In this document: piece by piece, positions 1 to 63,387 of the stretch
How positions within the stretch are numbered: position 1 is the stretch's first letter
Layout: every line of letters begins with the position of its first letter
Virus record (IMG/VR): IMGVR_UViG_3300017649_000004
Reading direction: 5' to 3' (one strand)
DNA from: a virus
Taxonomy: Duplodnaviria > Heunggongvirae > Uroviricota > Caudoviricetes
Length of the DNA stretch: 64,000 nucleotides
The notes under the pieces: model-generated
Database searches by the model: none
Seen by the model: only the letters and a program-made list of their open reading frames with translations
What the model was told of the DNA's origin: nothing
Program-made: the position numbers and the translations under genes

Positions 1-51
1 AAATGGCGTGTTAGAAGGTAAGTAAGCATTTACTTCCCTACGAGGTCAATT

Positions 52-720
52 ATGGGCGCGAAGGTCTATCTCTGTTCCTTTGATCCGGACTCGACCGATC
101 AGGACGACCCTTCCAACACGCAGCTGCTGGAACTGGACGAGTTCTCGCCGCTGGGAACGGCTCAACTCGACTTTGGTGCCAGCCCTGAGACCCACGACTG
201 CGAGATCGTGAATCTTGGTCCCGATCCGATCTGGTGGACTGTCCGCGGCGAAGAGATTGCCGATGTCACGCCGCAGATGATGCGCGGCCGCACCCGTATT
301 CTCCTGCCGGGCGAGCGCTACGCGCAGCCGGGCAAGTATGAGAACAGCCACTTCTATTTTGCGCATGAGAACCCGCGCGCCTCGACGCTGTTCCGCCATC
401 AGCCGATCAGCATTGAGGGCGACTTCCGCGTCTACGTCACCTGGTCGGGCACCGACTATGAGTGGAACGTGATCTTCCCGCAGGTCCACGCGGTCAACGC
501 GACCATCTCCTCGAGCTTCTTTGCCCTGGCGCCGGACGCTGAAGAGCCGGATGTGTGGGATATTGCCGAGCTTCCGGCCGTCACCGACTTTGCCGAAGGC
601 ACGCAGGCATGGGCCGAGCTCACCGTTTCCGATGGCGAGTTCACCAAGACCTTCAAGTCGGAAGTCTACGTCCTGCCGGCGCTGCCCGAAGGCGGTCCTG
701 AACAGGGTGGTGACGAGTGA
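52..720 (+). CDS. hypothetical protein, possibly a tail-associated structural protein
   Basis: 222-aa ORF preceded by a hairpin motif at 17-38 and immediately upstream of the tail fiber genes. No recognisable catalytic motif. Confidence 0.5.
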   Translation: MGAKVYLCSFDPDSTDQDDPSNTQLLELDEFSPLGTAQLDFGASPETHDCEIVNLGPDPIWWTVRGEEIADVTPQMMRGRTRILLPGERYAQPGKYENSHFYFAHENPRASTLFRHQPISIEGDFRVYVTWSGTDYEWNVIFPQVHAVNATISSSFFALAPDAEEPDVWDIAELPAVTDFAEGTQAWAELTVSDGEFTKTFKSEVYVLPALPEGGPEQGGDE

Positions 721-1067
721 GCTATTCCCAGTATCTACAGGGAAAGGCGATCCAGACCGGCTGTGACTGGCGGCTGAAAATCACGATCAATTCGGCCGCT
801 CTGGAGGAGTTTCCCTCTAACGCCCATTTCCTCGCGCACATTCGCGATCACGCAGATGGTCCTTTGAAGGCCGCTCTCTCCACTGAGGACGGCACCATCA
901 CGCGTATGAACTCCAAGACCATCGAGCTGATCATTCCCGCCACCGTCAGCGCCAGCTGGCAGGCGGGCACTGTCGTAATGGACGTGCTGCGCGTCGATAC
1001 CAGCACCCCGATCCACCTGGGATTTGACCTCGAAGTCCCGGTCAAGCGCACAATTACGAGACCCTAA
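717..1067 (+). CDS. hypothetical protein
   Basis: 116-aa ORF. ATGA overlap with the upstream gene, and its TAATG stop overlaps the tail fiber start. Confidence 0.45.
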   Translation: MSYSQYLQGKAIQTGCDWRLKITINSAALEEFPSNAHFLAHIRDHADGPLKAALSTEDGTITRMNSKTIELIIPATVSASWQAGTVVMDVLRVDTSTPIHLGFDLEVPVKRTITRP

Positions 1068-4000
1068 TGTCCGAAGAAGTAGTCCTTAATTTCGCCGACG
1101 ACATCAAGGTTGTGCAGCGTCACAACAAGGACGTGCATCTGGTGCTTTCGAAGGAAGGCACGCAAGGTGTCCCGGGCCTCAAAGGTGACAAGGGTGATAA
1201 AGGCGACCCTGGCGACAGCGCCTATACGGTTGCCGTGCAGAATGGCTTCAGCGGAACTGTTTCGCAGTGGCTGGACTCGCTCAATGGCAGGCCGGTCGAG
1301 ATGCGCCGCAATGGCACCGACGTTGAGTGGCGCATTCAGGGAGACAGCACCTGGGCTGCTCTGTTCCCGCTCAACGATGTGAAGGGTGACAAGGGCGACA
1401 AGGGCGACAAGGGTGATCAGGGTGACAGCGCCTACACGGTCGCTGTTCAGAACGGCTTTGTCGGCACTGTGTCGGCCTGGCTTGCGTCCCTTCACGGCAA
1501 GCCGATCGAGGTCCGGCGCAACGGCGCAAACATCGAATGGCGCATTCAGGGTGAGACGACCTGGACCGTCATGGTGCCGCTTGCGGACATCAAGGGCGAC
1601 AAGGGCGATAAGGGCGACACTGGCGCGACCCTCGAGATGCGTGACAATGGCACCTATCTCCAGTGGCGTCCGGTTGGCGCCACGACGTGGAACAACCTCG
1701 TTTCCAAGGCTGACATCAAGGGCCAGGACGCCAAGGAGCTCGAACTTCAGAAGACGACCACGCACATTCAGTGGCGGCGCGTTGGTGACGTCTGGAACAA
1801 CCTCGTCGAACTCATCGAGCTGAAGGGCGAGGACGCCGAGGAAATCGAAATTCGTCGCAGCGGCGACTACTTGCAATGGCGCCGCGGAACCGGTGCCTGG
1901 ACAAACTTTGTCGAACTGACCGACATCAAGGGCGATCCGGGCGAAGAAATCGAAATCCGCAAGACCTCTACGCACATTCAGTGGCGCCTCGGCGAAGGCG
2001 CCTGGCAGAATGTCGTTGCAATCACCGACCTTGTTGGCCCGACCGGCAACAACGCATGGACGCCGGTCATTGCGTTGCTTTCGCATGGCGAGAGCCGCGT
2101 GCAGCAGATCATCGATTGGATCGGCGGCTCGGGCGCAAAGCCGGCAACCGGCATGTATCTCGGTCCGACCGGCTACGTCACCGACATCAACGATGCGACC
2201 GACGTTCGCGGCACAGCCGGCGCTGGCTCGGGCGACATGGAAATGTTGACCTATGACCCGGATGAAGACGGTATCGTTGAGCGCGCCGATGTTGCTGACA
2301 GCGTTGCCTGGGAGGGCGTCACCGACAAGCCGTCGGCCTTCCCGCCGACCGCGCACGAACATTCGGCCAGCGAAATCAACTCGGGCACGCTCAATGCTGC
2401 TCGTATTCCGGACCTGGCAATCTCGAAGATCACCAACCTTCAGTCCGAACTCAACGGCAAGGTGAATGCTTCGCAGCTCGGCGTTCCGGGCGGCGTGGCA
2501 ACCCTCGATGAGCTGGGCAAGGTTCCCGCCGCGCAGCTTCCGAGCTACGTCGATGACGTTCTGGAAGTGGAAGACTATGAGAGCTTGCCGACGACCGGCG
2601 AGAGCGGCAAGATCTACGTGCTCGTCACGCCCTACACCTCGGGCGGTGTGACGTCCTCGCAGTTCCGCTGGACCGGCTCGAGCTATGCGCCGATCGTTGC
2701 GTCGCCTGGCTCGACCGACGCTGTGCCGGAAGGTCCGAACAACCTCTATTTTACCTATGGACGTGTTCGCTCGACGGCCCTGTCCGGCCTCTCGACCGCG
2801 ACGAACGCCGCGATTGCGGCAGGCGACACGGTTCTGAGCGCCTTTGGCAAGCTTCAGGCCCAGATCACCGCAGCCGTTAACGCGATCGCCGGCAAGGCGG
2901 ACGCTTCGCACACCCACGCAAATGCCACGACCTCGGCCCATGGCTTCATGTCGTCGACCGACAAGAGCAAGCTCGACGGGATCGAAGCAAACGCTGACGT
3001 GACTGACGCGCAGAATGTGGGCTCGTCTATTCACGGATCGACGGCCAAGACGACCCCTGTCGATGCTGATACTGTTGCGCTGATCGATAGCGCGGCCTCG
3101 AACGCCCTGAAGAAGCTGTCCTGGTCGAACATCAAGGCGACGCTCAAGACCCACTTTGACACGCTCTACGCTGGAAAGGCACACTCGCACGCCTTCGCCG
3201 ACATCACCGGCAAGCCGACGACGCTTGCTGGATACGGCATCACGGATGCGCTGGCCGGTGAGACGCACACGCACCCGATGTCGGACGTGAGCGGCCTCGA
3301 GGATGCACTTGCCGCCAAGGCACCGCTTGCCTCGCCGGCGTTCACCGGCAACCCGACTGCCCCCACTCAGTCGGCCGGCAACAATACGACCCGTATCGCA
3401 ACGACGGCGTTCGTGCAGACGGCCATTTCGAGCAAGGCCAATACCGCGTCTCCGGCTCTGACCGGCACGCCGACTGCTCCGACCGCCGCCGCCGGCACCA
3501 ATACGACGCAGATTGCAACTACGGCGTTCGTTCAGACGGAAATTGCCGGCAAGGCAAACACCTCGCACACTCATGCAATCGGCGATGTGACCGGTCTTCA
3601 GGATGCGCTGAAGGGCAGTTTCACTGATACGGCGGTTCCGACCATCACTGACCTCGATGCGTTGCGCGGCAAGGGCATCAAGTTCTTCGCCTTCGCCGAC
3701 ACTGCGACGGGCGCACCGACCGGCTTTGGTTCGAGCTATGACGCGCTTGGTCTGAGCTGGGCGTCGAACGGCCAATGCACGCAGATCACCAATATGGGTC
3801 ACACCGGCCTTGTCTGGCGTATCGACGATGCCTCGGCAAGCTCCACGGCGACCTGGACTGAATGGGCGCGCATCCTCGACTCGCTCAACTTCAGCGAGTT
3901 CGCGATGCCGATCGGGGGCACCACTGGCACCCTCACGATGAAGCGTCAGGGTAACGACGAGCTGCCGCCTCTCGTTGTCGAGAACACCAACTACGCGACG

Positions 4001-5023
4001 CGCGCCGTCATGGAGTTCAAGACGACCGGCTCGTATCCGGTTTTCATCGGTCAGGGCGATCAGGGCTATTTCGCGATCGGCAATAGCTGGGACATTCGTG
4101 ACTCTGCCAATGCTACGTTCCGCGTCCAGGCCCATACCGGCAATGTCAACACGAAGGGCACCCTGAAGGTTGACGGCAAGGCGACGTTCGCGGCCGCAAC
4201 CTCGGCTGGTGCCGGCATCAACATCGGTCAGGCCGCGCTCAACCCGAGCACGCTCGCGGACGGTGACATGTGGATCAATGGCAGCGCGCTCTATGTCCGC
4301 TGCAACGGCACGAACCGTGTTCTCGGCGCTACCGGCAATCTGTCGACCGTCTCGCAGGCGGAAGCAGAAGCAGGCACGGCAACTACGACCCGCGCCTGGA
4401 CGGCTCAGCGTGTTGCCCAGGCCATCGCAGCTCAGGCCGCTGCCAAGACACATACCCACGCGATTTCGGACATCACGAACCTCCAGACGGCGCTTGACCA
4501 GAAGGTAACTAACGACGACGCGGTGATCAAAGGTGTCCTCACGGTGAGGGAGGCCACCACCGGGGGTATTGGCGCTATTGAGCTTGGCGGTCAGTCCGGC
4601 GCGAACACGCCCTACATCGACTTCCACTGCGGCGCGACCGCCATCGACTACGACGTCCGGATCGTTGCGAGCAACGGTAACGGCACCAATGGTGGCGGCG
4701 TCCTGAACATCTCTGCGACCAGCGTGACCGCTAGCGGAAACCTTGGTGCCTATTCCGATGCTCGTCTCAAGACGAATGTTGAAACGATCGAGGACGGCCT
4801 CAGTCTCGTCTCGCAGATGCGCGGTGTCCGCTACACCCGAGATGGCAAGCGTCAGGTTGGTGTCATCGCTCAGGAAATGCAGAAGGTGCTGCCTGAAGTC
4901 GTCATTGAGGCTGACGACGAGATGAAGACCCTTGCAGTCACCTACGGCAACATCGTCGGCGTCCTGATCGAAGCGATTAAGGAGCTGAAGGCTGAGGTCG
5001 ACGAGATGAAGAGGGCAGCGTAA
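1067..5023 (+). CDS. tail fiber protein with collagen-like GDKGDKGD triplets, tandem N-terminal repeat modules, fiber repeats and a C-terminal peptidase S74 intramolecular chaperone domain
   Basis: 1318 aa. Three copies of a ~50-aa module (...SAYTVAVQNGF.GTVS.WL.SL.G.P.E.RRNG...EWRIQG..TW) flanked by (KGD)n collagen-like runs. Five or more 'L/IQWRR...W.N.V...DIKG' repeats. Duplicated 'TTRIATTAFVQT' tail-fiber repeat. C-terminus 'SDARLKTNVETIEDGLSLVSQMRGVRYTRDGKRQVGVIAQEMQKVLPEVV' matches the S74 self-cleaving chaperone (S-D-x-R-x-K motif). Confidence 0.85.
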   Translation: MSEEVVLNFADDIKVVQRHNKDVHLVLSKEGTQGVPGLKGDKGDKGDPGDSAYTVAVQNGFSGTVSQWLDSLNGRPVEMRRNGTDVEWRIQGDSTWAALFPLNDVKGDKGDKGDKGDQGDSAYTVAVQNGFVGTVSAWLASLHGKPIEVRRNGANIEWRIQGETTWTVMVPLADIKGDKGDKGDTGATLEMRDNGTYLQWRPVGATTWNNLVSKADIKGQDAKELELQKTTTHIQWRRVGDVWNNLVELIELKGEDAEEIEIRRSGDYLQWRRGTGAWTNFVELTDIKGDPGEEIEIRKTSTHIQWRLGEGAWQNVVAITDLVGPTGNNAWTPVIALLSHGESRVQQIIDWIGGSGAKPATGMYLGPTGYVTDINDATDVRGTAGAGSGDMEMLTYDPDEDGIVERADVADSVAWEGVTDKPSAFPPTAHEHSASEINSGTLNAARIPDLAISKITNLQSELNGKVNASQLGVPGGVATLDELGKVPAAQLPSYVDDVLEVEDYESLPTTGESGKIYVLVTPYTSGGVTSSQFRWTGSSYAPIVASPGSTDAVPEGPNNLYFTYGRVRSTALSGLSTATNAAIAAGDTVLSAFGKLQAQITAAVNAIAGKADASHTHANATTSAHGFMSSTDKSKLDGIEANADVTDAQNVGSSIHGSTAKTTPVDADTVALIDSAASNALKKLSWSNIKATLKTHFDTLYAGKAHSHAFADITGKPTTLAGYGITDALAGETHTHPMSDVSGLEDALAAKAPLASPAFTGNPTAPTQSAGNNTTRIATTAFVQTAISSKANTASPALTGTPTAPTAAAGTNTTQIATTAFVQTEIAGKANTSHTHAIGDVTGLQDALKGSFTDTAVPTITDLDALRGKGIKFFAFADTATGAPTGFGSSYDALGLSWASNGQCTQITNMGHTGLVWRIDDASASSTATWTEWARILDSLNFSEFAMPIGGTTGTLTMKRQGNDELPPLVVENTNYATRAVMEFKTTGSYPVFIGQGDQGYFAIGNSWDIRDSANATFRVQAHTGNVNTKGTLKVDGKATFAAATSAGAGINIGQAALNPSTLADGDMWINGSALYVRCNGTNRVLGATGNLSTVSQAEAEAGTATTTRAWTAQRVAQAIAAQAAAKTHTHAISDITNLQTALDQKVTNDDAVIKGVLTVREATTGGIGAIELGGQSGANTPYIDFHCGATAIDYDVRIVASNGNGTNGGGVLNISATSVTASGNLGAYSDARLKTNVETIEDGLSLVSQMRGVRYTRDGKRQVGVIAQEMQKVLPEVVIEADDEMKTLAVTYGNIVGVLIEAIKELKAEVDEMKRAA

Positions 5024-6093
5024 TGGCACTTCCCACTTCCGGCACCATTACGGCCGCAATGATCAATACGGAGCTGGGGCGAGCGGCCAACGCGGCGTTC
5101 AACCTGAACGATTCCGCAGTCCGCGCTCTGGCTGGGCGTCCGTCGGGCGCGATCAGTTTCTCGGATTTCTACGGCAAAGCCGCTGAGACGGTCCTCTACG
5201 CGCCGTCTAACTCGTTCGCCACCAACATCGCGGACATCTTCAATAACGCAGAGGCCGGTCTGTGGGCGTCGACCACGAAAAAGAAACGATTGATCGTCAA
5301 CCAAGCGGTCGGGCCTCTCGTCATCAACAGCGCCTTTGGTGCTGGGCTCACCATCGAGGTTACGTCGGCGGGTAGCATCAACGGTTTCGGCGGCGCAGCA
5401 AACAGCGGTGTCGGCGGAAACGCACTCAACATCACCACCGCGACAGGCATCACCCTCATCAACAACGGTGTCATCCGAGGCGGTGGCGGCGGCGGCGGTA
5501 AAGGCGGCAACGGGGGAACGGGAACGTTCAATATCTCGGAGCGGGTGCCGCCGTCAGGGGACTACCCCTACGGAACCGCGGCAGGCCAGGCTATGTGGAC
5601 TGTGCTATCGTCCTCGGAGCTCCGTTGGGATGGGGCACTTCTGGCGGGGTCGTTTGGCACTGGTGTGACGCAGATTACGGTCGGCGAGTGGACCTACCAC
5701 CGTAGCACTCTCGTTGCGACGCTACCCCCCGGCACCCTCCCGAACCAACCGTTTCCTGCCTTCAGATACGCCGTCTTTCGCACCCGCACTATCACCACGA
5801 CCTCGTCCGGAGGGGCTGGAGGCAACGGCGGTCGCGGCCAAGGCTGGGACGGCGCAGCAGCAGCCGGTGCAAACGGTGCGGCAGGCGGCACGAACGCTGG
5901 TGCGGGCGGCAAGGGCGGCAACGGCGGTGCCTATGGTAACGCAGGTGCTACCGGCGCGACCGGCGCATCGGGCAACGCTGGCGCTGGCGCGGCAGGCACG
6001 GCCGGTGGTGCCGCTGGTAAGGCAATCAACGGCTACAACCGTGTGTCCTACTCGGGATCGGGTAGTTTGCTCGGCGGAACTGCCAACACGTAA
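5023..6093 (+). CDS. glycine-rich fiber or tip protein
   Basis: 356 aa. The C-terminal third is a Gly/Ala/Asn-rich tract (GGAGGNGGRGQGWDGAAAAGANGAAGGTNAGAGGKGGNGG...). TAATG overlap with the tail fiber gene. Confidence 0.55.
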   Translation: MALPTSGTITAAMINTELGRAANAAFNLNDSAVRALAGRPSGAISFSDFYGKAAETVLYAPSNSFATNIADIFNNAEAGLWASTTKKKRLIVNQAVGPLVINSAFGAGLTIEVTSAGSINGFGGAANSGVGGNALNITTATGITLINNGVIRGGGGGGGKGGNGGTGTFNISERVPPSGDYPYGTAAGQAMWTVLSSSELRWDGALLAGSFGTGVTQITVGEWTYHRSTLVATLPPGTLPNQPFPAFRYAVFRTRTITTTSSGGAGGNGGRGQGWDGAAAAGANGAAGGTNAGAGGKGGNGGAYGNAGATGATGASGNAGAGAAGTAGGAAGKAINGYNRVSYSGSGSLLGGTANT

Positions 6094-6095
6094 TA

Positions 6096-6119
6096 ATAAG
6101 TAAGTCAGCACTTACTTCC
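6096..6119 (+). promoter_or_regulatory. intergenic GTAAGT hairpin element (hairpin-only class)
   Basis: AAGTAAGT-cagc-ACTTACTT, 60 nt upstream of the phoH start. Confidence 0.45.
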
Positions 6120-6179
6120 TTTCGGCATTTCGGGTAGATTGGGTCCAAGTGAATACCCCTCCCTTCCGGAGTTCCCGAA

Positions 6180-6932
6180 ATGCCCAAGCCCTCCAAGTCC
6201 CTCGCCCGTCAGAAGCGCCGCGAGAAGCGTGCGCTCGCCGCTGAGAAGCGCCAGATTCTTGACCAGTTCCAGAGGGACCAGGCTCCCTTCGCCCCTCGCA
6301 AGGCAAGAGTCGAACCTGTCCGGCCGCTGACGGCCGCGCAGCGTGCCTATGACGCAGCAATCCATACCGCCGATGTCGTCTTCGGCATTGGTCCGGCCGG
6401 CACCGGCAAGACCTGGTTTGCCGCCATGCGAGCTGCTGAGGCGCTCGACATGAAGGAGATCAAGAAGATCATCGTCACGCGCCCCGCCGTTGAAGCCGGC
6501 GAGTCCCTCGGCTATCTGCCGGGCGAGCTCGAGGAGAAATACGAGCCCTACTTCCGGCCCGTGCGCGATGCCTTCGAGGAGTATTTTGGCCGGGGCTACG
6601 CGGAGTATCTGATCAAGGAAGGCAAGATCGAAGCTCGTCCGCTGGCCCTTCTGCGCGGCGCGACCATCAAGGACGCCTGGCTGATCGCCGACGAAATGCA
6701 GAATGCGACCGAAGGGCAGTTCAAGATGCTCCTGTCGCGCATTGGTGAGAATGCAAAGTTCATCCTCAATGGCGATCCGAAGCAAAGCGACCTGCCGGCG
6801 GGCAAGTCTGGCCTCATCACCGTGCAGAAGAAGCTGGAGCATATCGACGGCATTCAGACCGTCCGGTTTGGTCGTGGTGACATTGTGCGCTCTGGCATCT
6901 GCCAGGCGATCGTTGAAGCGTTTGAGGGATAA
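6180..6932 (+). CDS. phoH: PhoH-like ATPase
   Basis: Walker A 'GPAGTGKTWFAAMRAAEAL' and overall PhoH-family organisation. This is a common phage auxiliary gene. Confidence 0.85.
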   Translation: MPKPSKSLARQKRREKRALAAEKRQILDQFQRDQAPFAPRKARVEPVRPLTAAQRAYDAAIHTADVVFGIGPAGTGKTWFAAMRAAEALDMKEIKKIIVTRPAVEAGESLGYLPGELEEKYEPYFRPVRDAFEEYFGRGYAEYLIKEGKIEARPLALLRGATIKDAWLIADEMQNATEGQFKMLLSRIGENAKFILNGDPKQSDLPAGKSGLITVQKKLEHIDGIQTVRFGRGDIVRSGICQAIVEAFEG

Positions 6933-6987
6933 AGAGCGCACTCCGATGTGCGCTCGTTATATGTTCGCTATCAACGAAAGTTAGCGC

Positions 6988-7719
6988 ATGACCAGCATCA
7001 TCACCGCATTCTCTACTGCTTTGGAGGCTGAGCGAACCGACACCCTGGAGAACGACTACTACTGCCAGTTCTTGGATCGGGAGATCGTCGACAGGGAGCT
7101 CGGCCTCTTCACTTCGAAATGGTTCGACTACCGGCACATGACGCCGCTTCAGGCCACCGGTGCCTATGTGGAGGCCTACAACAAGGTCTTCCGTGACATT
7201 TACGCCCGCGAGTTCGACTATGAACGGGCGCAATATATCGTCGCGCTCAATTTCGAGAGAATGCTGGCTGCGCTCCGGTTCAAGAACGACATGAAGCAGC
7301 GCCGCTACTTCGTCGGGTGCTGGCGTGGCCGGCAGATCGCAGACTATCTGTGTATGCCCTACGAGGTCTATGTGGAGCTCGCCTTCACGTTCCGGATGCG
7401 GCACTGGAAGCAGAATTTCATGCCGCAGCCCTATCACCTCTATCGCGAAGAGGATGTCGAGAAGATCATCGCTCGCTGGGAAGAGCTGAAGGAAACCCGG
7501 ATCTACACGGCTGAGCACTCCGCATACCTCGTCCAGAACTACGAGGGTGCGCGCCACCAGGACGACTACCACGAGTGGCTGTTTGTCCAGGCCGAGAAGC
7601 GCCAGGCAACGGCCGAGCACCTTGCGGATTTCATCAGGAACGACCAGCTCCCTTACGAGAAGGTTCGCTCGCGCGTCGATCCCGACTTGTTTGAGCAGGT
7701 CGACTACTTCCTGCAATAA
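6988..7719 (+). CDS. hypothetical protein
   Basis: 243-aa ORF with coding-like composition. Followed by a palindromic terminator. Confidence 0.55.
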   Translation: MTSIITAFSTALEAERTDTLENDYYCQFLDREIVDRELGLFTSKWFDYRHMTPLQATGAYVEAYNKVFRDIYAREFDYERAQYIVALNFERMLAALRFKNDMKQRRYFVGCWRGRQIADYLCMPYEVYVELAFTFRMRHWKQNFMPQPYHLYREEDVEKIIARWEELKETRIYTAEHSAYLVQNYEGARHQDDYHEWLFVQAEKRQATAEHLADFIRNDQLPYEKVRSRVDPDLFEQVDYFLQ

Positions 7720-7793
7720 CCCAAGCGAGAGCGCGCTATACGTCATAGCGCGCATTTTTCGCGTCTTATAGTGTAAGTAAGCGCATACTTAGG
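7720..7793 (+). promoter_or_regulatory. promoter-like CCCA-N10-CGCTATA box plus GTAAGTAAG-loop-ACTTA hairpin
   Basis: CCCAAG, then 10 nt, then GCGCGCTATA (also the terminator arm). CTTATA plus GTAAGTAAGCGCATACTTAGG ends 8 nt before the ATG at 7801. Confidence 0.45.
7731..7759 (+). terminator. rho-independent terminator
   Basis: Perfect palindrome GCGCGCTAT-acgtc-ATAGCGCGC followed by ATTTTTC, 12 nt after the stop of the 6988-7719 gene. Confidence 0.6.
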
Positions 7794-7800
7794 AAACGTC

Positions 7801-9123
7801 ATGTCTGAGACGGAAGCGCAATTCGAGTTCGACCCTGCATTTCAGCGCAAAATCGCTTCGCTGTTCCTGCGGGACTCGCAATTCGCGATCAAAACCAAAG
7901 ATCTGATCAAGCCGGAGTATTTCACCGAGCAGGCTGTCGGCACGATGGTTCGCGTCGTGCAGAACCACCTTCAGGTCTACAAGACGATCCCGGATCTGCG
8001 CATTCTGCCGACCGTCCTCAAGGACGAGATCACGGCCAAGCGTATTCGCACCGACCAGATCGGCGAGGTTCGCGACTTCATCAAGGAAGCCGTGTCGGCC
8101 GACCTGTCGAACCCCGATTATGTGGTCGACAAGGTGGTCACCTTCGCAAAGCGTCAGGCGATCGAGCAGGCAATGATCGAGTCCCTGCCGCTCCTCGACA
8201 AAGGTCAGTTCGACAAGATCGCCGAGATTATGAAGAAGGCGACCTCTGTCGGGCTCCTGGTCGACGATGAGGACTACGACTACTGGGCGGAAATCGAGAA
8301 CCGAACCAAGGAGCGTAAGGACTACGACGACGGCAAGGTCGTGCGCGACGGCATCACGACCGGATATTCGGGCATCGATGCGCACCTCTACCACCTCGGA
8401 TGGGGTCGCAAGGAGCTTTCGTGCATCATGGGCGCTGCGAAGGCCGGTAAGTCGATGTCCCTTGGTGACTTCGGCCGCAATGCCTCGCTCGCCGGCTACA
8501 ATGTCCTCTACATCACGCTCGAAGTCGGCAAGAAGATCATCGCCGATCGTCTCGACGCGGCAAACGCCGACACGCTCATGCGTGAGCTTATCAAGGATCA
8601 CGCGGCGGTCGATCGCGCGATCAAGGCGCTGGCAGCCAAGAACACTGGCCGCTTTCACATTCGCGAGTTCGCGTCCGGCACCTTCAAGCCGTCGGCGCTC
8701 AACCGGCTGATCGAAAGCTATCGCGCCAAGGGCATCATCTTCGACCTGATCATTGTCGACTACGCCGACATCATGGCCGCGGAGTATCGCTCGGACTCGC
8801 TCCAGGAGAACCTGCGCACGATCTACGTGGACCTTCGCGCGCTCGCCTTCGAGCACAATGTCGCGATGCTGACTGCCACGCAGACGAACCGTGAAGGCGC
8901 AAAGGCCGCGACGGCCAAGGCAACCGACGTCGGCGATGACTGGAACAAGGCACGCACGGTCGACATCCTCATCGGCATCAATGCGACTGAGGCTGAGAAG
9001 AAGGCCAATGAGGCGCGTCTGACCTGGCTGCTGTCGCGTAACACCGAAGATGGCTTCTCCCTGCGCATCAAGCAGGATCGCCAAAAGATGAAGTTTTTGA
9101 CCAAAATCCTGGGCAAAGTCTGA
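7801..9123 (+). CDS. DnaB-family replicative DNA helicase
   Basis: RecA-like C-terminal domain: Walker A 'GAAKAGKSMSLG', 'IIVDYADIM', and 'LTATQTNREGAKAA' (DnaB/T7 gp4-like motifs). Confidence 0.75.
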   Translation: MSETEAQFEFDPAFQRKIASLFLRDSQFAIKTKDLIKPEYFTEQAVGTMVRVVQNHLQVYKTIPDLRILPTVLKDEITAKRIRTDQIGEVRDFIKEAVSADLSNPDYVVDKVVTFAKRQAIEQAMIESLPLLDKGQFDKIAEIMKKATSVGLLVDDEDYDYWAEIENRTKERKDYDDGKVVRDGITTGYSGIDAHLYHLGWGRKELSCIMGAAKAGKSMSLGDFGRNASLAGYNVLYITLEVGKKIIADRLDAANADTLMRELIKDHAAVDRAIKALAAKNTGRFHIREFASGTFKPSALNRLIESYRAKGIIFDLIIVDYADIMAAEYRSDSLQENLRTIYVDLRALAFEHNVAMLTATQTNREGAKAATAKATDVGDDWNKARTVDILIGINATEAEKKANEARLTWLLSRNTEDGFSLRIKQDRQKMKFLTKILGKV

Positions 9124-60097: not shown

Positions 60098-60169
60098 AAG
60101 CGCTGTCCCCTGCGTAAGCCCATATTTTTCAATGCTAAATTCTACACAGTGAGAACAGGAGTAGTCTTG

Positions 60170-60547
60170 GTGAATATCGAGAACATCAATCGGCTGATCG
60201 CCGCGCTCCGCTCGCCAAAAGGTGTGGGATTTAACCTGGGAACCTACGTGGGGGAGCAAACCGACAAATTGCCTGACCAGACAGGCAACAACCTTCCGTA
60301 TGTGGCGTGCCTGGCTGGTCACGCTTTCATGCTGCACACGGGAATGCCGCCTGGCGACGCAAAAGAGGTCGATCCAGACACCATTGAGGAAGCCGCTGTG
60401 GCGTTCCTCGGTGTCTCCCGCCGCCAGGGCTGGGAGCTGTTCTTCGACCTCCCGGATGAGGTCGTGCTTGAAACAATCACCGTCGACCAGGCGGTCGCCA
60501 CGCTGGAGCGGCTGAAGGCGACTGGCGAAGTCCGCTGGGAGCTCTGA
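60170..60547 (+). CDS. hypothetical protein
   Basis: About 125 aa with a GTG start and RBS AGGAG. Confidence 0.45.
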   Translation: MNIENINRLIAALRSPKGVGFNLGTYVGEQTDKLPDQTGNNLPYVACLAGHAFMLHTGMPPGDAKEVDPDTIEEAAVAFLGVSRRQGWELFFDLPDEVVLETITVDQAVATLERLKATGEVRWEL

Positions 60548-60884: not shown

Positions 60885-61730
60885 ATGCCCAACCACGTCA
60901 CCCACCGTCTGATCATCACCGCGCCGTCCAAGGAGGCGCTGGACAATTTCATCGTGTCGGTCGCGTCTAAGGACGAAAACGACTTCTCCGCGTTCTGCTT
61001 CGAGACACTGGTCCCGACGCCGATCTGCATCCAGGAGTCCGAGTCCTCGAGCGACGTTGAGGTCGGTCTTGCTCTGCTCGATCGGCTCGACTGCTCCGAC
61101 AGGATGTTTGGCGCGAAGACGCTTGACGAGTTCGTCGCCCAGTATCTCAGCTATTCGTGGGTCCAGTCCGCGGGCGTCACCAACAAGGACGAGCTGCTCG
61201 ATTTCCTGCGCAAGCGACATCCGGAAGCTGAGGCGAAAGCCATGCACGCCATCAAGTGTAAGGAGGAGACCGGACACGCCGATTGGTATTCCTGGCGCAT
61301 CCAGAATTGGGGCACCAAGTGGAATGCCTATTCGGTCGATCTTGAGCGCACCGACGACACCACTGTCGAGTTGAAATTCGACACCGCCTGGTCGACGCCG
61401 GAGCCGATCTTTGCGGCGATCGCCGAGAAGTTCCCGGATCTTCGCATCATCGGCGCCTGCTTCGATGAAGGCTGGAACTTCGCGTGCGGCATCAAGATCG
61501 GCGACGGCGATTGTGTGATCCTCGATGCACCGAACGATCACATGGACCAGCTCTATGCGTTCGTCTACGGCGCATGGCCGGAGCATGATGACGAGGACGA
61601 GGCGCAGCTGATCGAGCACGACGAACTGCCGACGCCGGCACGGATCCTCGAGGATCTGACCAAGGCTAAGGAAGCGAAGAAAGCCGCAGTCGTAGCCGCG
61701 GCGAAGGAAGTCGCAGTCGCAGCGCAGTAG
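60885..61730 (+). CDS. hypothetical protein with WGTKWN motif
   Basis: 281 aa. 'WYSWRIQNWGTKWNAYSVDL...FDTAWSTPEPIFAAIAEKFPDL' is reminiscent of the Api92/DUF1281-like family. Confidence 0.45.
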   Translation: MPNHVTHRLIITAPSKEALDNFIVSVASKDENDFSAFCFETLVPTPICIQESESSSDVEVGLALLDRLDCSDRMFGAKTLDEFVAQYLSYSWVQSAGVTNKDELLDFLRKRHPEAEAKAMHAIKCKEETGHADWYSWRIQNWGTKWNAYSVDLERTDDTTVELKFDTAWSTPEPIFAAIAEKFPDLRIIGACFDEGWNFACGIKIGDGDCVILDAPNDHMDQLYAFVYGAWPEHDDEDEAQLIEHDELPTPARILEDLTKAKEAKKAAVVAAAKEVAVAAQ

Positions 61731-61834
61731 GGCGCCGCGTCCCGCGAAGGCCGTCTCCTTTCGAGGAGGCGGCTTTTCTTTTGGCCGAACGAATCCCACG
61801 GTCGCCCGTTCTACCGGCTGTTGGAGTCGGTTCG

Positions 61835-62152
61835 ATGAGTAATCAGTGGTGGTCGCGTCCCGTCCACGTCGCCGTGAGCAACGGCACCTCGGTGGTGGTC
61901 AATAACAACCGCCTTGCCGCGGAAATGCTCCTGAAATGGCCGCTGGAAGGCTCAGAGAAGGCCGCCTGGGCCCGGCGCGCTACCCTGCGCTCCATGGAAC
62001 GTCCTGACGATCCTGGGCCTCTCCTGTCGGCGCAAATGTGGTTCGAAGCGGCCGCCGAGGAGGCAGGGCTGCGCATGGACCCGCCACCGCCCTCCATGGC
62101 ACCCAAGACATTCAAGACACCGGTTTGGCGACGGCGGAAATCTCGCCATTAA
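61835..62152 (+). CDS. hypothetical protein
   Basis: 105 aa from an internal ATG with RBS GGAG. Confidence 0.35.
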   Translation: MSNQWWSRPVHVAVSNGTSVVVNNNRLAAEMLLKWPLEGSEKAAWARRATLRSMERPDDPGPLLSAQMWFEAAAEEAGLRMDPPPPSMAPKTFKTPVWRRRKSRH

Positions 62153-62946
62153 TCCCCAAAAGCGCACCGTTCGTTTGCGCCACCCAATGAACGATAACCT
62201 TCCATTATCGTGCATTATCCCGGCCGCGCTCCAAATCGCGCTCTGATAGATCAGAAGCATGAGAAGCGCGCACGACGCGCGAAGCGAGATGAGCGAGGGG
62301 AGAACGGACATGAGCCGTCATTTATGAATTGGAGGGTGGCTACCTCCGTAACAATAGCCCGGTCAAGAACCGTTACACATACGGAGGGAGCTCCTTCATA
62401 AGAGGCAGGCGCGTCGGGACGGTGTTGAGAAACCGGCGGCCAGGAGCTCTCCCGCCTGTCACCGCGCCCGTCAGGGGTAGTCTCGGTGAAATTTCATCAA
62501 GGGCTCGGCATTGCGCCGACCAGAAACCGCTTGAGTGCTCACAATCCCCACGGTGAGCTGGCGGAGAGCTCGGCTTGCATAGGCAGGTCGTTCGTCCCGA
62601 CCGGCGCCGTGGTGATCAATGACCACTCGTGCCGCTCCGCGGAGCTTGCTAAGGTGCAAACAGATTCGAGGGCAGAAGCAGCCGCGCCGTGCCAGCCGGC
62701 GCACCGGGAGGATGAGCCAACCCGGCTGAGGCAAAACAGGCTTTGCCCTCGAACTGGAGGTGACGCCATGTGGTTCTTTCCATTTAGCGCCGCCCTGGAG
62801 ATACGAAAAACCCGGAGCGGCTGGCTAGTGCGACTCCGGGTCAATTTCGTAATCTAGGAAACGAGGGGCAGGTTCGCGCCTGCTCCTCACTCCGGGAATA
62901 TGACCTCTCTCCCCTCCCCTTTCAAGTCCTGAATACGTTCCGTCCG

Positions 62947-62990
62947 ACATCCAACTTCTCGCTCGCTATAAGTAAATCATTACTAACAGC
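62947..62990 (+). promoter_or_regulatory. full promoter/5'-hairpin element
   Basis: ACATCCA - N10 - CGCTATAAGTAA - atca - TTACTAAC. Confidence 0.45.
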
Positions 62991-63009
62991 AACGCGCGAG
63001 CAAGCGACG

Positions 63010-63387
63010 ATGAACACTCAGGTCCAGATTTCCCTTCACGCAGACTGCGCACTCGACAGCAGCCGCTATCACGTCCGCGCAGTCCTTCCGCGCATCCTCG
63101 AGCGCGAATTTCTCAAGATCATCCGTGGTCACGGCCACATGACCGGCGACCTCAACGGTCTGCGCGTCGAGTTCTATGACGCCGACTATGAAGGCGAGGA
63201 AATCGCTTTCGGCTACGGCTGCATCAATCAGGACGTCTCCTTCAGCCTGAAGCCTGGTCAGGAAGCCCTGGTCATTGACCTGTCGATCAGCAAGGGACTC
63301 GACCATGCCGCCGGCGAGCTGCCGGACTGCTTCTGGTGCGAACCTGCAATGATCATGCGCCGTCTCCTCGGCGCCATTCAGCACTGA
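63010..63387 (+). CDS. hypothetical protein
   Basis: 125-aa ORF preceded by a promoter/hairpin element. Confidence 0.45.
   Translation: MNTQVQISLHADCALDSSRYHVRAVLPRILEREFLKIIRGHGHMTGDLNGLRVEFYDADYEGEEIAFGYGCINQDVSFSLKPGQEALVIDLSISKGLDHAAGELPDCFWCEPAMIMRRLLGAIQH

What the first reader, a model, noticed from the sequence alone, without database searches (positions are those of the whole stretch)
62150..62990. About 0.85-kb stretch with no convincing ORF but dense GC-rich hairpins: candidate structured ncRNA, replication origin or packaging site
Coding density elsewhere is above 90%. This region has only weak overlapping ORFs (62329-62556, 62486-62857) with poor sequence character. It contains many short inverted repeats, for example GAGCT-ggcggag-AGCTC, GTGGT-gatcaatga-ACCAC, GCGCCG-tgccagc-CGGCGC and CCCGGAG-N19-CTCCGGG. 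It ends at a promoter/hairpin element (62947-62990). I found no match by eye to RNase P, tmRNA or group I/II intron cores.
Basis: seen in the sequence. Interest (0 to 1): 0.55.

Follow-up and report, generated by a model that had tools for sequence, protein, structure and literature searches.

The report
Hidden mini-gene with antisense RNA guard
The "empty" stretch contains a small unannotated module: a 29-codon gene on a tightly folded mRNA, with a small RNA predicted from the opposite strand. It recurs in phages, plasmids and chromosomes of Alphaproteobacteria and is built like a type I toxin-antitoxin system, a class I did not find reported for this group.

Summary
Window 62153-63009 has no ORF with phage-like codon usage. 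Its 3' third (about 62645-62930) is not an origin, a packaging site or a purely non-coding RNA. It is a self-contained module of about 270 nt. I found 83 copies in 62 loci from rhizobial plasmids, Rhizobium phages, gene-transfer-agent-like clusters and chromosomes, often in tandem, with no conserved neighbouring gene.

The parts are:
- a 5'-UTR with four helices;
- a GGAGG ribosome-binding site;
- a conserved 29-codon sORF (62768-62857, MWFFPFSAALEIRKTRSGWLVRLRVNFVI);
- a 3' hairpin followed by a conserved ACUCC that pairs with the ribosome-binding site, with strong covariation;
- on the minus strand, a promoter conserved in 57 of 57 copies (TTGAAA-17-CATATT) and a terminator hairpin inside the sORF, which predict an antisense RNA of about 88 nt.

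Wobble-pair asymmetry shows that structures are selected on both strands.

The best reading (0.6) is a new family resembling type I toxin-antitoxin systems, working like H. pylori aapA1/IsoA1 or hok/sok. The peptide looks like a cationic beta-hairpin rather than a membrane helix. Toxicity and transcription are untested. The upstream 500 nt (62153-62644) remains unexplained.

The parts
62647..62655 (+). Possible promoter of the sense mRNA (extended -10, TGC-TAAGGT). It would start transcription at about 62660-62663, just before helix P1. This assignment is weak.
   Evidence: By eye. The consensus scan finds no + strand promoter in 62100-63050. Other family members have lineage-specific promoter-like sites 4-12 nt before P1, for example TTGAAA-16-CATTAT in L021 and TATAAG in phage RHph_X66. 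Inference only.
62665..62753 (+). Structured 5'-UTR. P1 (62665-62674 with 62744-62753) encloses three hairpins: P2 (62684-62689 / 62697-62702, loop UGCCAGC), P3 (62704-62708 / 62721-62725) and P4 (62726-62728 / 62737-62739). The joining segment GAAGCAGC (62675-62682) is conserved.
   Evidence: P1 and P2 covary: 7 of 8 and 4 of 5 pairs change on both sides. P3 and P4 form in per-sequence folds despite different arm sequences. In P1, G-U outnumbers A-C by 51 to 12, so the + strand RNA is the folded species. Coordinates.
62754..62762 (+). Ribosome-binding site CUGGAGGUG, 5 nt (GACGC) upstream of the start codon. Its CUGGAG part pairs with the 3' anti-SD element.
   Evidence: An SD-like purine run lies 4-9 nt before ATG in every copy listed, a full GGAGG in most. 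Pairing with columns 271-276 of A2 covaries: pair 116:275 is UA 18, CG 18, GC 6, AU 2. The single-sequence MFE fold of 62662-62898 forms the same helix.
62768..62857 (+). Conserved small ORF of 29 codons plus stop: MWFFPFSAALEIRKTRSGWLVRLRVNFVI. It is the candidate toxin.
   Evidence: Intact (27-30 aa) in 69 of 72 copies. The third codon position is the most variable and dN/dS is about 0.39. Pro5 and Leu10 stay conserved while their third bases vary. The beta-strand hydrophobic moment is 0.6-0.95 against 0.02-0.16 for a helix, and net charge is +4. No Pfam, NCBIfam, PHROG or PADLOC family matches.
62804..62840 (-). Intrinsic terminator of the antisense RNA, lying inside the sORF. The hairpin is CCCGGAG (62811-62817) / CUCCGGG (62834-62840). 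On the minus strand it is followed by UUUUUCG, the complement of the Arg-Lys codons at 62804-62810. The loop GCUGGC (62820-62825) is complementary to the P2 loop.
   Evidence: 97.6% paired, with ACC-CGG invariant at the nucleotide level. This helix has 0 G-U but 9 A-C cells on the + strand, so wobble pairs are tolerated only on the minus strand. A run of 4-6 U follows the hairpin in most of the 57 copies.
62863..62888 (+). GC-rich 3' hairpin of the sense mRNA: GAGGGGCAGG-uucgcg-CCUGCUCCUC.
   Evidence: All 7 pairs of the inner helix and 3 of the 4 outer pairs change on both sides. 96 G-U against 8 A-C cells show that it is selected on the + strand.
62890..62895 (+). Anti-Shine-Dalgarno element CUCCGG, within the family's conserved ACUCC. 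It folds back onto the ribosome-binding site, directly next to P1, and encloses the whole reading frame.
   Evidence: Coordinates.
62897..62925 (-). Promoter of the antisense RNA: -35 TTGAAA (62925-62920), 17 nt spacer, -10 CATATT (62902-62897).
   Evidence: This is the only promoter-like site found in 62100-63050 (9 of 12 matches; 0.3 expected). The same site is present in 57 of 57 aligned copies: -35 mostly TTGGAA/TTGAAA/TTGATT, spacer 16-17 nt in 55, -10 TATATT in 23.
62804..62891 (-). Predicted cis-antisense small RNA of about 88 nt, the candidate antitoxin. It is complementary to codons 13-29 of the sORF, the stop codon and the 3' hairpin.
   Evidence: Bounded by the conserved promoter and terminator above. 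It folds into two hairpins with z = -5.6. No transcript data exist, so the ends are inferred.
62153..62644 (.). Upstream spacer, unexplained. It has no supported ORF, no homologue and only weak structure.
   Evidence: Only bases 62657-62927 of the query 62100-63010 matched any plasmid or phage record. All ORFs have negative coding scores. Folding gives z about -2.2 on both strands. The family HMM finds no second copy.
62943..62971 (+). Promoter-like site TCCGAC-17-CTATAA upstream of the gene at 63010. Not part of the module.
   Evidence: A single occurrence in the window. Inference only.

Best explanation
Window 62645-62930 is a self-contained two-RNA module built like a type I toxin-antitoxin system.

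Proposed mechanism:
1. The + strand gives an mRNA of about 235-260 nt. Its 5' end folds at once into a four-helix domain (P1-P4). This is followed by the ribosome-binding site, a 29-codon reading frame for a cationic peptide that looks like a beta-hairpin, a GC-rich hairpin and an ACUCC anti-SD element.
2. In the full-length transcript the anti-SD folds back onto the ribosome-binding site, stacked on P1, so the message is translationally silent.
3. The loop of the hairpin inside the reading frame is additionally masked by the complementary loop of P2.
4. The minus strand gives an RNA of about 88 nt from a strong conserved promoter. It ends at that same hairpin, read in the opposite direction.
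5. This RNA is fully complementary to the 3' half of the reading frame. It would form a duplex with any opened or 3'-trimmed message, leading to its inactivation, probably by RNase III cleavage.
6. If the antisense RNA is lost while the stable mRNA persists, the peptide is made. That could follow loss of the plasmid or phage, or transcription shut-off.

Shown here: the conservation, the reading frame, the helices and their covariation, the promoter and terminator motifs, selection on structures of both strands, and the lack of any linked gene.

Inferred: that both RNAs are made, that 3' processing activates the mRNA, that the peptide is harmful, and what the phage gains from the module. Possible gains are selfish maintenance, exclusion of competitors, or control of the timing of host damage.
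For: - Family: 83 nhmmer hits in 62 loci. Hosts are Hyphomicrobiales and Maricaulales chromosomes, rhizobial plasmids, Rhizobium phages, and GTA-like clusters (the last in Phyllobacterium only).
- Up to three tandem copies with a period of about 400 nt.
- No conserved neighbour: at most 6-7 of about 60 loci share one, and those are close relatives. Neighbours include yidC, leuS, a TadG-like gene and a Tn3 transposase.
- sORF intact in 69 of 72 copies, each with an SD-like site, and under protein-level selection.
- Structure: 43 pairs, 91.7% paired against 34-49% in slid controls. The covariation score is 0.387 against about 0.1, and 0 of 500 shuffles reach it.
- SD/anti-SD helix with compensatory changes at the flanking pairs. 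The single-sequence MFE fold recovers it, z = -6.0.
- P2-loop/ORF-loop complementarity: 90.9% paired against at most 42% when slid. There are compensatory substitutions and a matched 1-nt insertion, GCCAAGC/GCUUGGC, in L037 and L056.
- Antisense promoter present in 57 of 57 copies, followed by hairpin and U-tract.
- Wobble asymmetry: P1 51:12 and the 3' hairpin 96:8 favour the + strand, while the ORF hairpin at 0:9 favours the minus strand.
- The logic matches aapA1/IsoA1 of H. pylori: an inert full-length mRNA, activation by 3' processing, kissing loops and RNase III (PMC5416894 abstract).
Against: - There are no transcript data for either strand and no toxicity test.
- The peptide lacks the hydrophobic transmembrane helix typical of type I toxins. 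Its longest uncharged run is 10-12 residues and its maximum 15-residue hydropathy is about 0.5.
- The sense-strand promoter is not conserved and is weak or uncertain in this window.
- The sense mRNA has no recognisable terminator after the anti-SD.
- If the antisense RNA starts far enough upstream to include GGAG, it could free the ribosome-binding site rather than block it. In that case repression would depend on cleavage of the duplex.
- The pattern used to collect family members required part of the ORF and the hairpin. This biases the sample towards intact copies.
Confidence: 0.6

Rival explanations
1. The same two-RNA module, but the 29-residue peptide is not a toxin. It would be a tightly regulated micro-protein with another role, for example exclusion, anti-defence, or binding a nucleic acid or a host protein. 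The antisense RNA and the fold-back would simply keep its expression low or conditional.
For: It matches no defence or toxin family. It sits in core chromosomal intergenic regions as well as in mobile elements.
Against: Several features are the recurrent signature of type I toxin-antitoxin loci: tandem multiplication, spread across plasmids and phages with no partner gene, two layers of silencing of the mRNA, and a stronger, better-conserved antisense promoter. Such elaborate silencing is hard to explain for a harmless product.
Confidence: 0.22
2. A structured non-coding or dual-function RNA. The four-helix 5' domain would be a ligand- or protein-binding element similar to a riboswitch, and would be the functional core. 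The reading frame would be secondary or incidental.
For: Unpaired nucleotides are highly conserved: GAAGCAGC, the P2 loop GCCAGC, the P3 loop GAUGGGCC and the P4 loop GGCAA. This is typical of tertiary contacts or ligand pockets. Nucleotide-level invariance inside the ORF (ACCCGGA, AGC) shows RNA constraints there too.
Against: - No Rfam family matches, even at E<=10.
- The ORF shows a codon-periodic substitution pattern: residues are conserved while third bases vary, and Lys/Arg exchanges go through multi-base changes.
- The SD and ATG are kept in all copies.
- The ribosome-binding site is sequestered by the 3' element, not by the 5' domain.
- At least one conserved loop is explained by the kissing contact.
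Confidence: 0.1
3. One reading: a replication origin or a terminase packaging (pac/cos) site of the phage.
For: A non-coding stretch with many inverted repeats in an otherwise densely coding phage. The upstream 500 nt (62153-62644) is unexplained and could in principle hold such a site.
Against: - The conserved part is shared with plasmids, chromosomes and unrelated phages at 62-77% identity, while nothing else in the last 8 kb of the window matches any phage.
- There are no iterons or direct-repeat arrays.
- There is no AT-rich segment or skew switch: GC is 0.56-0.64 throughout.
- The conserved features are signals for translation and transcription.
Confidence: 0.04

Closest known systems
aapA1/IsoA1 type I toxin-antitoxin system of Helicobacter pylori (PMC5416894; PMC6733600)
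   Same: Both have a peptide of about 30 residues. In both, the full-length mRNA is silent because a long-distance interaction involving its 3' end hides the ribosome-binding site. Both have an antisense RNA from the opposite strand overlapping the reading frame, loop-loop recognition, and multiple chromosomal copies.
   Different: There is no sequence similarity. IsoA1 overlaps the 5' part of the message, whereas here the antisense RNA covers the 3' half and the 3' hairpin. Here an internal loop of the 5'-UTR (P2) has the same sequence as the antisense RNA's loop. The peptide here is predicted to be beta-amphipathic. The hosts are Alphaproteobacteria and their phages and plasmids. None of the steps has been tested here.
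hok/sok of plasmid R1 and its chromosomal homologues (my own knowledge of the system)
   Same: Both have a stable, compactly folded, translationally inert full-length mRNA closed by pairing between its 5' and 3' regions (fold-back inhibition). In hok/sok, activation is by 3' trimming. Both have an antisense RNA with a strong promoter, a plasmid location, and spread to chromosomes and phage-related elements.
   Different: There is no Hok_Gef domain and no overlapping mok-like leader ORF. Sok acts at the 5' leader, not the 3' half. Hok is a 50-residue membrane protein.
txpA/RatA and bsrG/SR4 of Bacillus subtilis prophage-like elements (organisation as summarised in PMC8594479)
   Same: The antisense RNA is convergent, overlaps the 3' end of the toxin mRNA including part of the ORF, and has its own promoter downstream of the toxin gene. 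These systems are located in prophage-like elements.
   Different: They are families from Gram-positive bacteria with hydrophobic membrane toxins. They have no covariation-supported 3' anti-SD fold-back of this kind. There is no sequence or Rfam match.

Membership tests
Type I toxin-antitoxin systems (class) | Small protein-coding gene (usually under 60 codons) under purifying selection | tested here: met
   29 codons. Intact in 69 of 72 copies. dN/dS is about 0.39 and the codon-position pattern is as expected for a coding region.
Type I toxin-antitoxin systems (class) | Antisense or partly complementary small RNA gene with its own promoter and terminator, able to pair with the toxin mRNA | tested here: met
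   Met at the sequence level only. A minus-strand promoter is conserved in 57 of 57 copies. A hairpin plus U-tract terminator is present, with wobble pairs tolerated only on the minus strand. The RNA is fully complementary to codons 13-29. Expression was not shown.
Type I toxin-antitoxin systems (class) | The peptide is toxic when expressed, and the RNA neutralises it | not testable with these tools
   Needs inducible expression with and without the antisense RNA in an alphaproteobacterial host.
Type I toxin-antitoxin systems (class) | Hydrophobic toxin with a predicted transmembrane helix (typical but not universal; SymE and RalR are exceptions, from my own knowledge) | tested here: not met
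   The longest uncharged run is 10-12 residues and the maximum 15-residue hydropathy is 0.4-0.6. The beta-strand hydrophobic moment is high and net charge is +4.
Type I toxin-antitoxin systems (class) | Toxin mRNA folded so that the ribosome-binding site is sequestered | tested here: met
   SD/anti-SD helix, 85.6% paired, with compensatory changes in 4 of 6 pairs. It is also the MFE structure of the window sequence.
Type I toxin-antitoxin systems (class) | Autonomous locus, often duplicated in tandem, found on mobile elements and chromosomes | tested here: met
   No conserved neighbour. Two or three tandem copies in 11 of the 62 loci, among them L003, L004, L008, L009, L021, L031, L040 and L050. 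Found on plasmids, in phages, in GTA-like clusters and next to leuS and yidC.
Hok/Sok family | Hok_Gef protein domain (PF01848) and an Rfam Sok/hok model match | tested here: not met
   No Pfam hit even at E<=10. No relevant Rfam hit at E<=10.
AapA/IsoA family | Sequence or structure homology to aapA mRNA and IsoA RNA, and restriction to Helicobacter and Campylobacter | tested here: not met
   No Rfam match of any kind. The hosts are Alphaproteobacteria. Only the regulatory logic is shared.
Rfam-curated non-coding RNA families (riboswitches, rhizobial sRNAs, RNase P, tmRNA, introns) | Covariance-model score at or above the family's gathering threshold | tested here: not met
   No matches in the whole window at gathering thresholds. 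Only chance-level hits at E<=10 in 61700-63100. No tmRNA or tRNA.

The most novel reading that the evidence does not exclude
This would be the founding member of an undescribed type I toxin-antitoxin family, and I found none reported for Alphaproteobacteria. Its toxin would be a 29-residue cationic beta-hairpin rather than a membrane helix. Its mRNA would carry a built-in mimic of the antitoxin's recognition loop (the P2 loop has the same sequence as the antisense terminator loop). The silent message would therefore be hidden from both ribosomes and antitoxin until it is processed. The module moves between plasmids, virulent-type large phages, GTA-like clusters and chromosomes.
Probability: 0.4. 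Interest if true: 0.75.

Novelty: new variant of a known kind. Interest (0 to 1): 0.62.

Why it matters
Type I toxin-antitoxin systems are documented mainly in Gammaproteobacteria, Campylobacterota and Firmicutes. The T1TAdb paper and the 2010 survey by Fozo et al. do not mention Alphaproteobacteria or rhizobia in their main text.

A conserved, covariation-supported family in rhizobia and marine Alphaproteobacteria would extend the class. It would also provide a toxin of a different physical type. It would give a compact model of an mRNA that is silenced by a 3' fold-back and an intramolecular decoy of the antitoxin loop.

The module is missed or labelled 'hypothetical protein' in current annotation. 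Recognising it would improve the annotation of rhizobial plasmids, phages and GTA clusters. It would also raise testable questions about plasmid maintenance and phage-host conflict in agriculturally important symbionts.

Tried and rejected
- Rfam over the whole window and, permissively, over 61700-63100: nothing relevant.
- tRNA/tmRNA scan: none.
- Pfam, NCBIfam, PHROGs and PADLOC on the peptide: no hits. PDB gave only chance matches.
I did not work around this with artificial concatenations.
- An exact-sequence look-up returned only 'hypothetical protein' names.
- A full-text search for the peptide sequences found no papers. Two keyword searches for type I systems in Alphaproteobacteria gave nothing specific.
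- Search for close relatives of this phage, to compare the unexplained upstream 500 nt: none were found in IMG/VR via the two flanking proteins. Nothing but the module matches in the phage collection, and megablast against plasmids found nothing.
- A second, degenerate copy of the module upstream in the window: not found by the family HMM.
- A conserved partner gene: rejected.
- The RNAalifold helix 74-78:99-103 competes with the inner part of P3 and with P4. The apparent covariation (CG 32, UA 16) may be phylogenetic co-variation of three columns, so I left it unresolved.
- A conserved sense promoter: not found at a fixed position.
- A repeated phage promoter motif matching the element at 62943-62971: there is only one occurrence in the window.
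- I did not build a covariance model. The full-length mRNA would probably exceed the calibration limit, and the MAFFT alignment already gave clear counts.
Full report
**Setting.** The window is part of a large phage of the kind that infects Alphaproteobacteria. It encodes a tail fibre with a Peptidase_S74 domain, a CobT-like protein, a DNA polymerase III alpha subunit, a ribonucleotide reductase and an SbcC-like ATPase. Nearly all of its long ORFs that are not shadows of a longer one lie on the + strand. The finding covers the gap between a small gene ending at 62152 and the next gene starting at 63010.

**Checking the observation.** I trained a codon-usage score on 21 long genes of the window. 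No ORF in 62153-63009 scores like a gene of this phage. All candidates are negative, against +0.55 to +0.59 for three of the four flanking genes scored in frame; the fourth, 61835-62152, scores about 0. Rfam gives no match at gathering thresholds in the whole window and only three chance-level matches at E<=10. ARAGORN finds nothing. The four quoted inverted repeats are present, with small errors in the quoted spacers. Predicted structure is clearly above chance only in the 3' third:
- 62662-62898 (+) folds with z = -6.0.
- The upstream 62153-62655 gives z of about -2.2 on both strands.

**A conserved element.** BLASTN of 62100-63010 against plasmids and phages matched only bases 62657-62927. 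Identity was 68-79% to unannotated DNA on 30 plasmids (Sinorhizobium, Ensifer, Shinella, Rhizobium, Roseibium/Labrenzia, Ancylobacter, Ochrobactrum, Microvirga and one Microbulbifer) and in 5 phage records. In the last 8 kb of the window this element is the only piece with DNA similarity to any deposited phage. A pattern derived from the first alignment recovered further copies:
- 6 IMG/VR contigs.
- 53 stretches in GTDB species representatives, all but one from Hyphomicrobiales, Maricaulales or unclassified Alphaproteobacteria MAGs. The exception, in a Lachnospiraceae MAG, did not match the family HMM and is a chance hit.

An nhmmer profile then found 83 copies in 62 loci and only one in the window, at 62644-62951. 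Copies are often tandem, two or three with a period of about 400 nt. In Phyllobacterium they sit between the large terminase and portal genes of 15-kb GTA-like clusters, on the opposite strand. Elsewhere they lie next to yidC, leuS, a TadG-like gene or a Tn3 transposase. Clustering all flanking ORFs showed no neighbour shared beyond close relatives. The element is therefore autonomous. The window's copy is closest to a Phyllobacteriaceae MAG (77%) and to Sinorhizobium plasmid copies (75%). It is only 68% identical to the copy in phage RHph_X66, so the phage copies are not each other's nearest relatives.

**A small gene.** Every copy contains ATGTGG preceded at 4-9 nt by an SD-like purine run, a full GGAGG in most. 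The reading frame is open for 27-30 codons in 69 of 72 distinct copies. In the window it is 62768-62857, MWFFPFSAALEIRKTRSGWLVRLRVNFVI.
- Substitutions are codon-periodic. Entropy is 0.78, 0.57 and 0.99 at positions 1, 2 and 3. Pro5 and Leu10 are conserved while their third bases vary freely. Mean dN/dS is about 0.39, although RNA constraints depress dS.
- Hydrophobic residues alternate in two segments separated by K-K/R-T-R-T/S. The beta-strand hydrophobic moment is 0.6-0.95 against 0.02-0.16 for a helix. Net charge is +4, and no stretch is long enough to span a membrane.
- No Pfam, NCBIfam, PHROG or PADLOC family matches.
- The few database copies of the peptide are all named 'hypothetical protein'.
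- No paper in the library contains the sequence.

**The sense RNA.** I aligned 57 distinct copies (A2). RNAalifold and a count on a structure I specified support the following helices:
- P1 (window 62665-62674 with 62744-62753).
- P2 (62684-62689 with 62697-62702).
- A hairpin inside the ORF (62811-62817 with 62834-62840).
- A GC-rich 3' hairpin (62863-62888).
- A long-range helix between the ribosome-binding site (CUGGAG, 62754-62759) and CUCCGG (62890-62895), part of a conserved ACUCC just after the 3' hairpin.

Overall, 91.7% of cells are paired, against 34-49% when the 3' partners are slid by 1-3 columns. The covariation score is 0.387 against about 0.1, and none of 500 shuffles reaches the observed values. 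The pair flanking the GGAG core is UA in 18 sequences, CG in 18, GC in 6 and AU in 2. The minimum-energy fold of the window sequence alone forms the same closing helix. Per-sequence folds show P3 and P4 in nearly all members despite different arm sequences. The MAFFT columns are not register-consistent there, and a competing helix (A2 columns 74-78 with 99-103) remains unresolved.

**A loop-loop contact.** The P2 loop GCCAGC (62691-62696) is complementary to GCUGGC (62820-62825) in the loop of the ORF hairpin. This contact is 90.9% paired against at most 42% when slid. It shows compensatory G-C to A-U and C-G changes. In two Microvirga copies an extra A in one loop is matched by an extra U in the other, giving GCCAAGC/GCUUGGC. 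One copy even trades the conserved Trp codon for Leu while keeping the pairing. The support is real but rests on few events.

**The antisense RNA.** The only promoter-like site in 62100-63050 is on the minus strand: TTGAAA (62925-62920), 17 nt, CATATT (62902-62897). The same site is present at the same place in all 57 aligned copies. The -35 is mostly TTGGAA, TTGAAA or TTGATT, the spacer is 16-17 nt in 55, and the -10 is TATATT in 23. This fits the CTTGAC-N17-CTATAT consensus I recall for Alphaproteobacteria.

Transcription would start at or just before the complement of ACUCC. It would run through the complement of the 3' hairpin and the end of the ORF. It would stop at the ORF hairpin, which on the minus strand is followed by a run of 4-6 U in most copies; these U residues are the complement of the Lys/Arg codons. 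The predicted RNA of about 88 nt (62891 to 62804) folds with z = -5.6.

Wobble pairs indicate which strand each helix serves. P1 has 51 G-U against 12 A-C cells, and the 3' hairpin has 96 against 8, so both are selected on the + strand. The ORF hairpin has 0 G-U and 9 A-C, so wobble is tolerated only on the minus strand, as expected for the antisense terminator. Structures on both strands are therefore under selection. This is the best available substitute for transcript data.

**Interpretation.** The module combines the following:
- a small conserved ORF on a compact mRNA whose ribosome-binding site is hidden by its own 3' end;
- a convergent, fully complementary small RNA with a better-conserved promoter than the mRNA's;
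- tandem multiplication;
- spread over plasmids, phages and chromosomes without any partner gene.

This is the architecture of type I toxin-antitoxin loci. The closest mechanistic match is aapA1/IsoA1 of H. pylori. There the full-length message is untranslatable, 3' processing activates it, and the antisense RNA then binds through kissing loops and triggers RNase III cleavage (PMC5416894). The fold-back inhibition of hok mRNA is a second match, from my own knowledge. I therefore propose the same sequence of events here, at confidence 0.6. The P2 loop would act as an internal mimic of the antisense RNA's recognition loop and mask the target loop in the silent form.

Three things fit less well. 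The peptide is not a membrane helix. The sense promoter is not conserved and is weak in this window: the best candidate is an extended -10, TGC-TAAGGT at 62647-62655. And an antisense RNA that includes GGAG at its 5' end could in principle compete for the anti-SD.

The main rival (0.22) keeps the two-RNA module but makes the peptide a regulated non-toxic micro-protein. A purely non-coding or riboswitch-like reading (0.10) is weakened by the coding signal. An origin or packaging site (0.04) is not supported for the conserved part.

**Known or new.** The module is not a member of Hok/Sok, AapA/IsoA or any Rfam family. The T1TAdb paper and the survey by Fozo et al. (2010) contain no mention of Alphaproteobacteria or rhizobia in their main text, and keyword searches found no description. 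The library is incomplete, so prior description elsewhere cannot be excluded. I rate it a new variant of a known kind.

**What remains open.** The 500 nt at 62153-62644 has no homologue, no supported ORF and only marginal structure. It may be a leader or promoter region, gene debris or a phage-specific site. No close relative of this phage was available for comparison. The site at 62943-62971 (TCCGAC-17-CTATAA) is probably the promoter of the downstream gene.

Noticed in passing
L004 1229-1954; L005 8712-9433; L006 1215-1940; L009 6005-6728; L022 2928-3649; L031 3060-3784: In Phyllobacterium, two tandem copies of the module sit in the roughly 0.8-kb gap between the large-terminase and portal genes of 15-kb GTA-like head-tail clusters. 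They are on the strand opposite to those genes, so the antisense RNA runs in the direction of the GTA operon.
   Followed up: partly
L003 (MW462191.1, 'Bacteriophage sp.') 1-8196: This 103-kb record, deposited as a phage, carries ETF-ubiquinone oxidoreductase, AMP nucleosidase and glutathione S-transferase genes around two or three copies of the module. It looks like bacterial chromosome rather than phage.
   Followed up: no
L027, about 40-60 nt upstream of the module (near 790-810, minus strand); L014 and L053 at the same relative position: Upstream of the Stappia and Roseibium copies there is a TTAAC-N-TTAAC motif. In L027 it is TTAACCTCTCGTTAAC, with the TTAA-N7-TTAA spacing of a CtrA box. 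In L014 and L053 the spacing is N6. It may mean lineage-specific cell-cycle control of the sense promoter.
   Followed up: no
Upstream of Phyllobacterium copies, for example L031, L047, L045, L046 and L029, about 55-60 nt before P1: A conserved motif, CAACCCTGCATTCGTTG, precedes the module in several Phyllobacterium lineages. Its function is unknown; it may be a regulator-binding site or part of the sense promoter.
   Followed up: no
window 61745-61785: A strong intrinsic terminator (GCCGTCTCC-tttcg-AGGAGGCGGC followed by TTTTCTTTT) follows the DUF1281_C-domain gene 60885-61730. The small gene 61835-62152 therefore needs its own promoter.
   Followed up: no
window 61835-62152: The 105-residue product (MSNQWWSRPVHVAVSNG...) resembles by eye the DUF982 proteins common in rhizobia. 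It gave no Pfam hit at E<=0.01 and has a coding score near zero.
   Followed up: partly
window 60149-60547 and L007 5714-6112: The protein encoded 2.5 kb upstream of the module in the window is 44% identical to one encoded 5 kb downstream of the module in an RHph_X66-like 120-kb phage contig. The two phages share accessory genes in this region but not their order.
   Followed up: no
L003 3976-4266; L009 6404-6728; L006 1632-1940: Three copies, each from a multi-copy (tandem) locus, have lost the reading frame. Two have a 1-nt deletion at the Lys-Lys-Thr codons (AAA AA(A/G) ACC) and one has lost the ATGTGG start. All keep the rest of the element, so one toxin gene of a tandem pair appears to have been inactivated recently.
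   Followed up: partly
plasmid hit H19, CP128432.1 (Microbulbifer sp. MKSA007) 61845-62015: One plasmid of a gammaproteobacterium carries a 70%-identical partial copy, the only hit outside Alphaproteobacteria.
   Followed up: no
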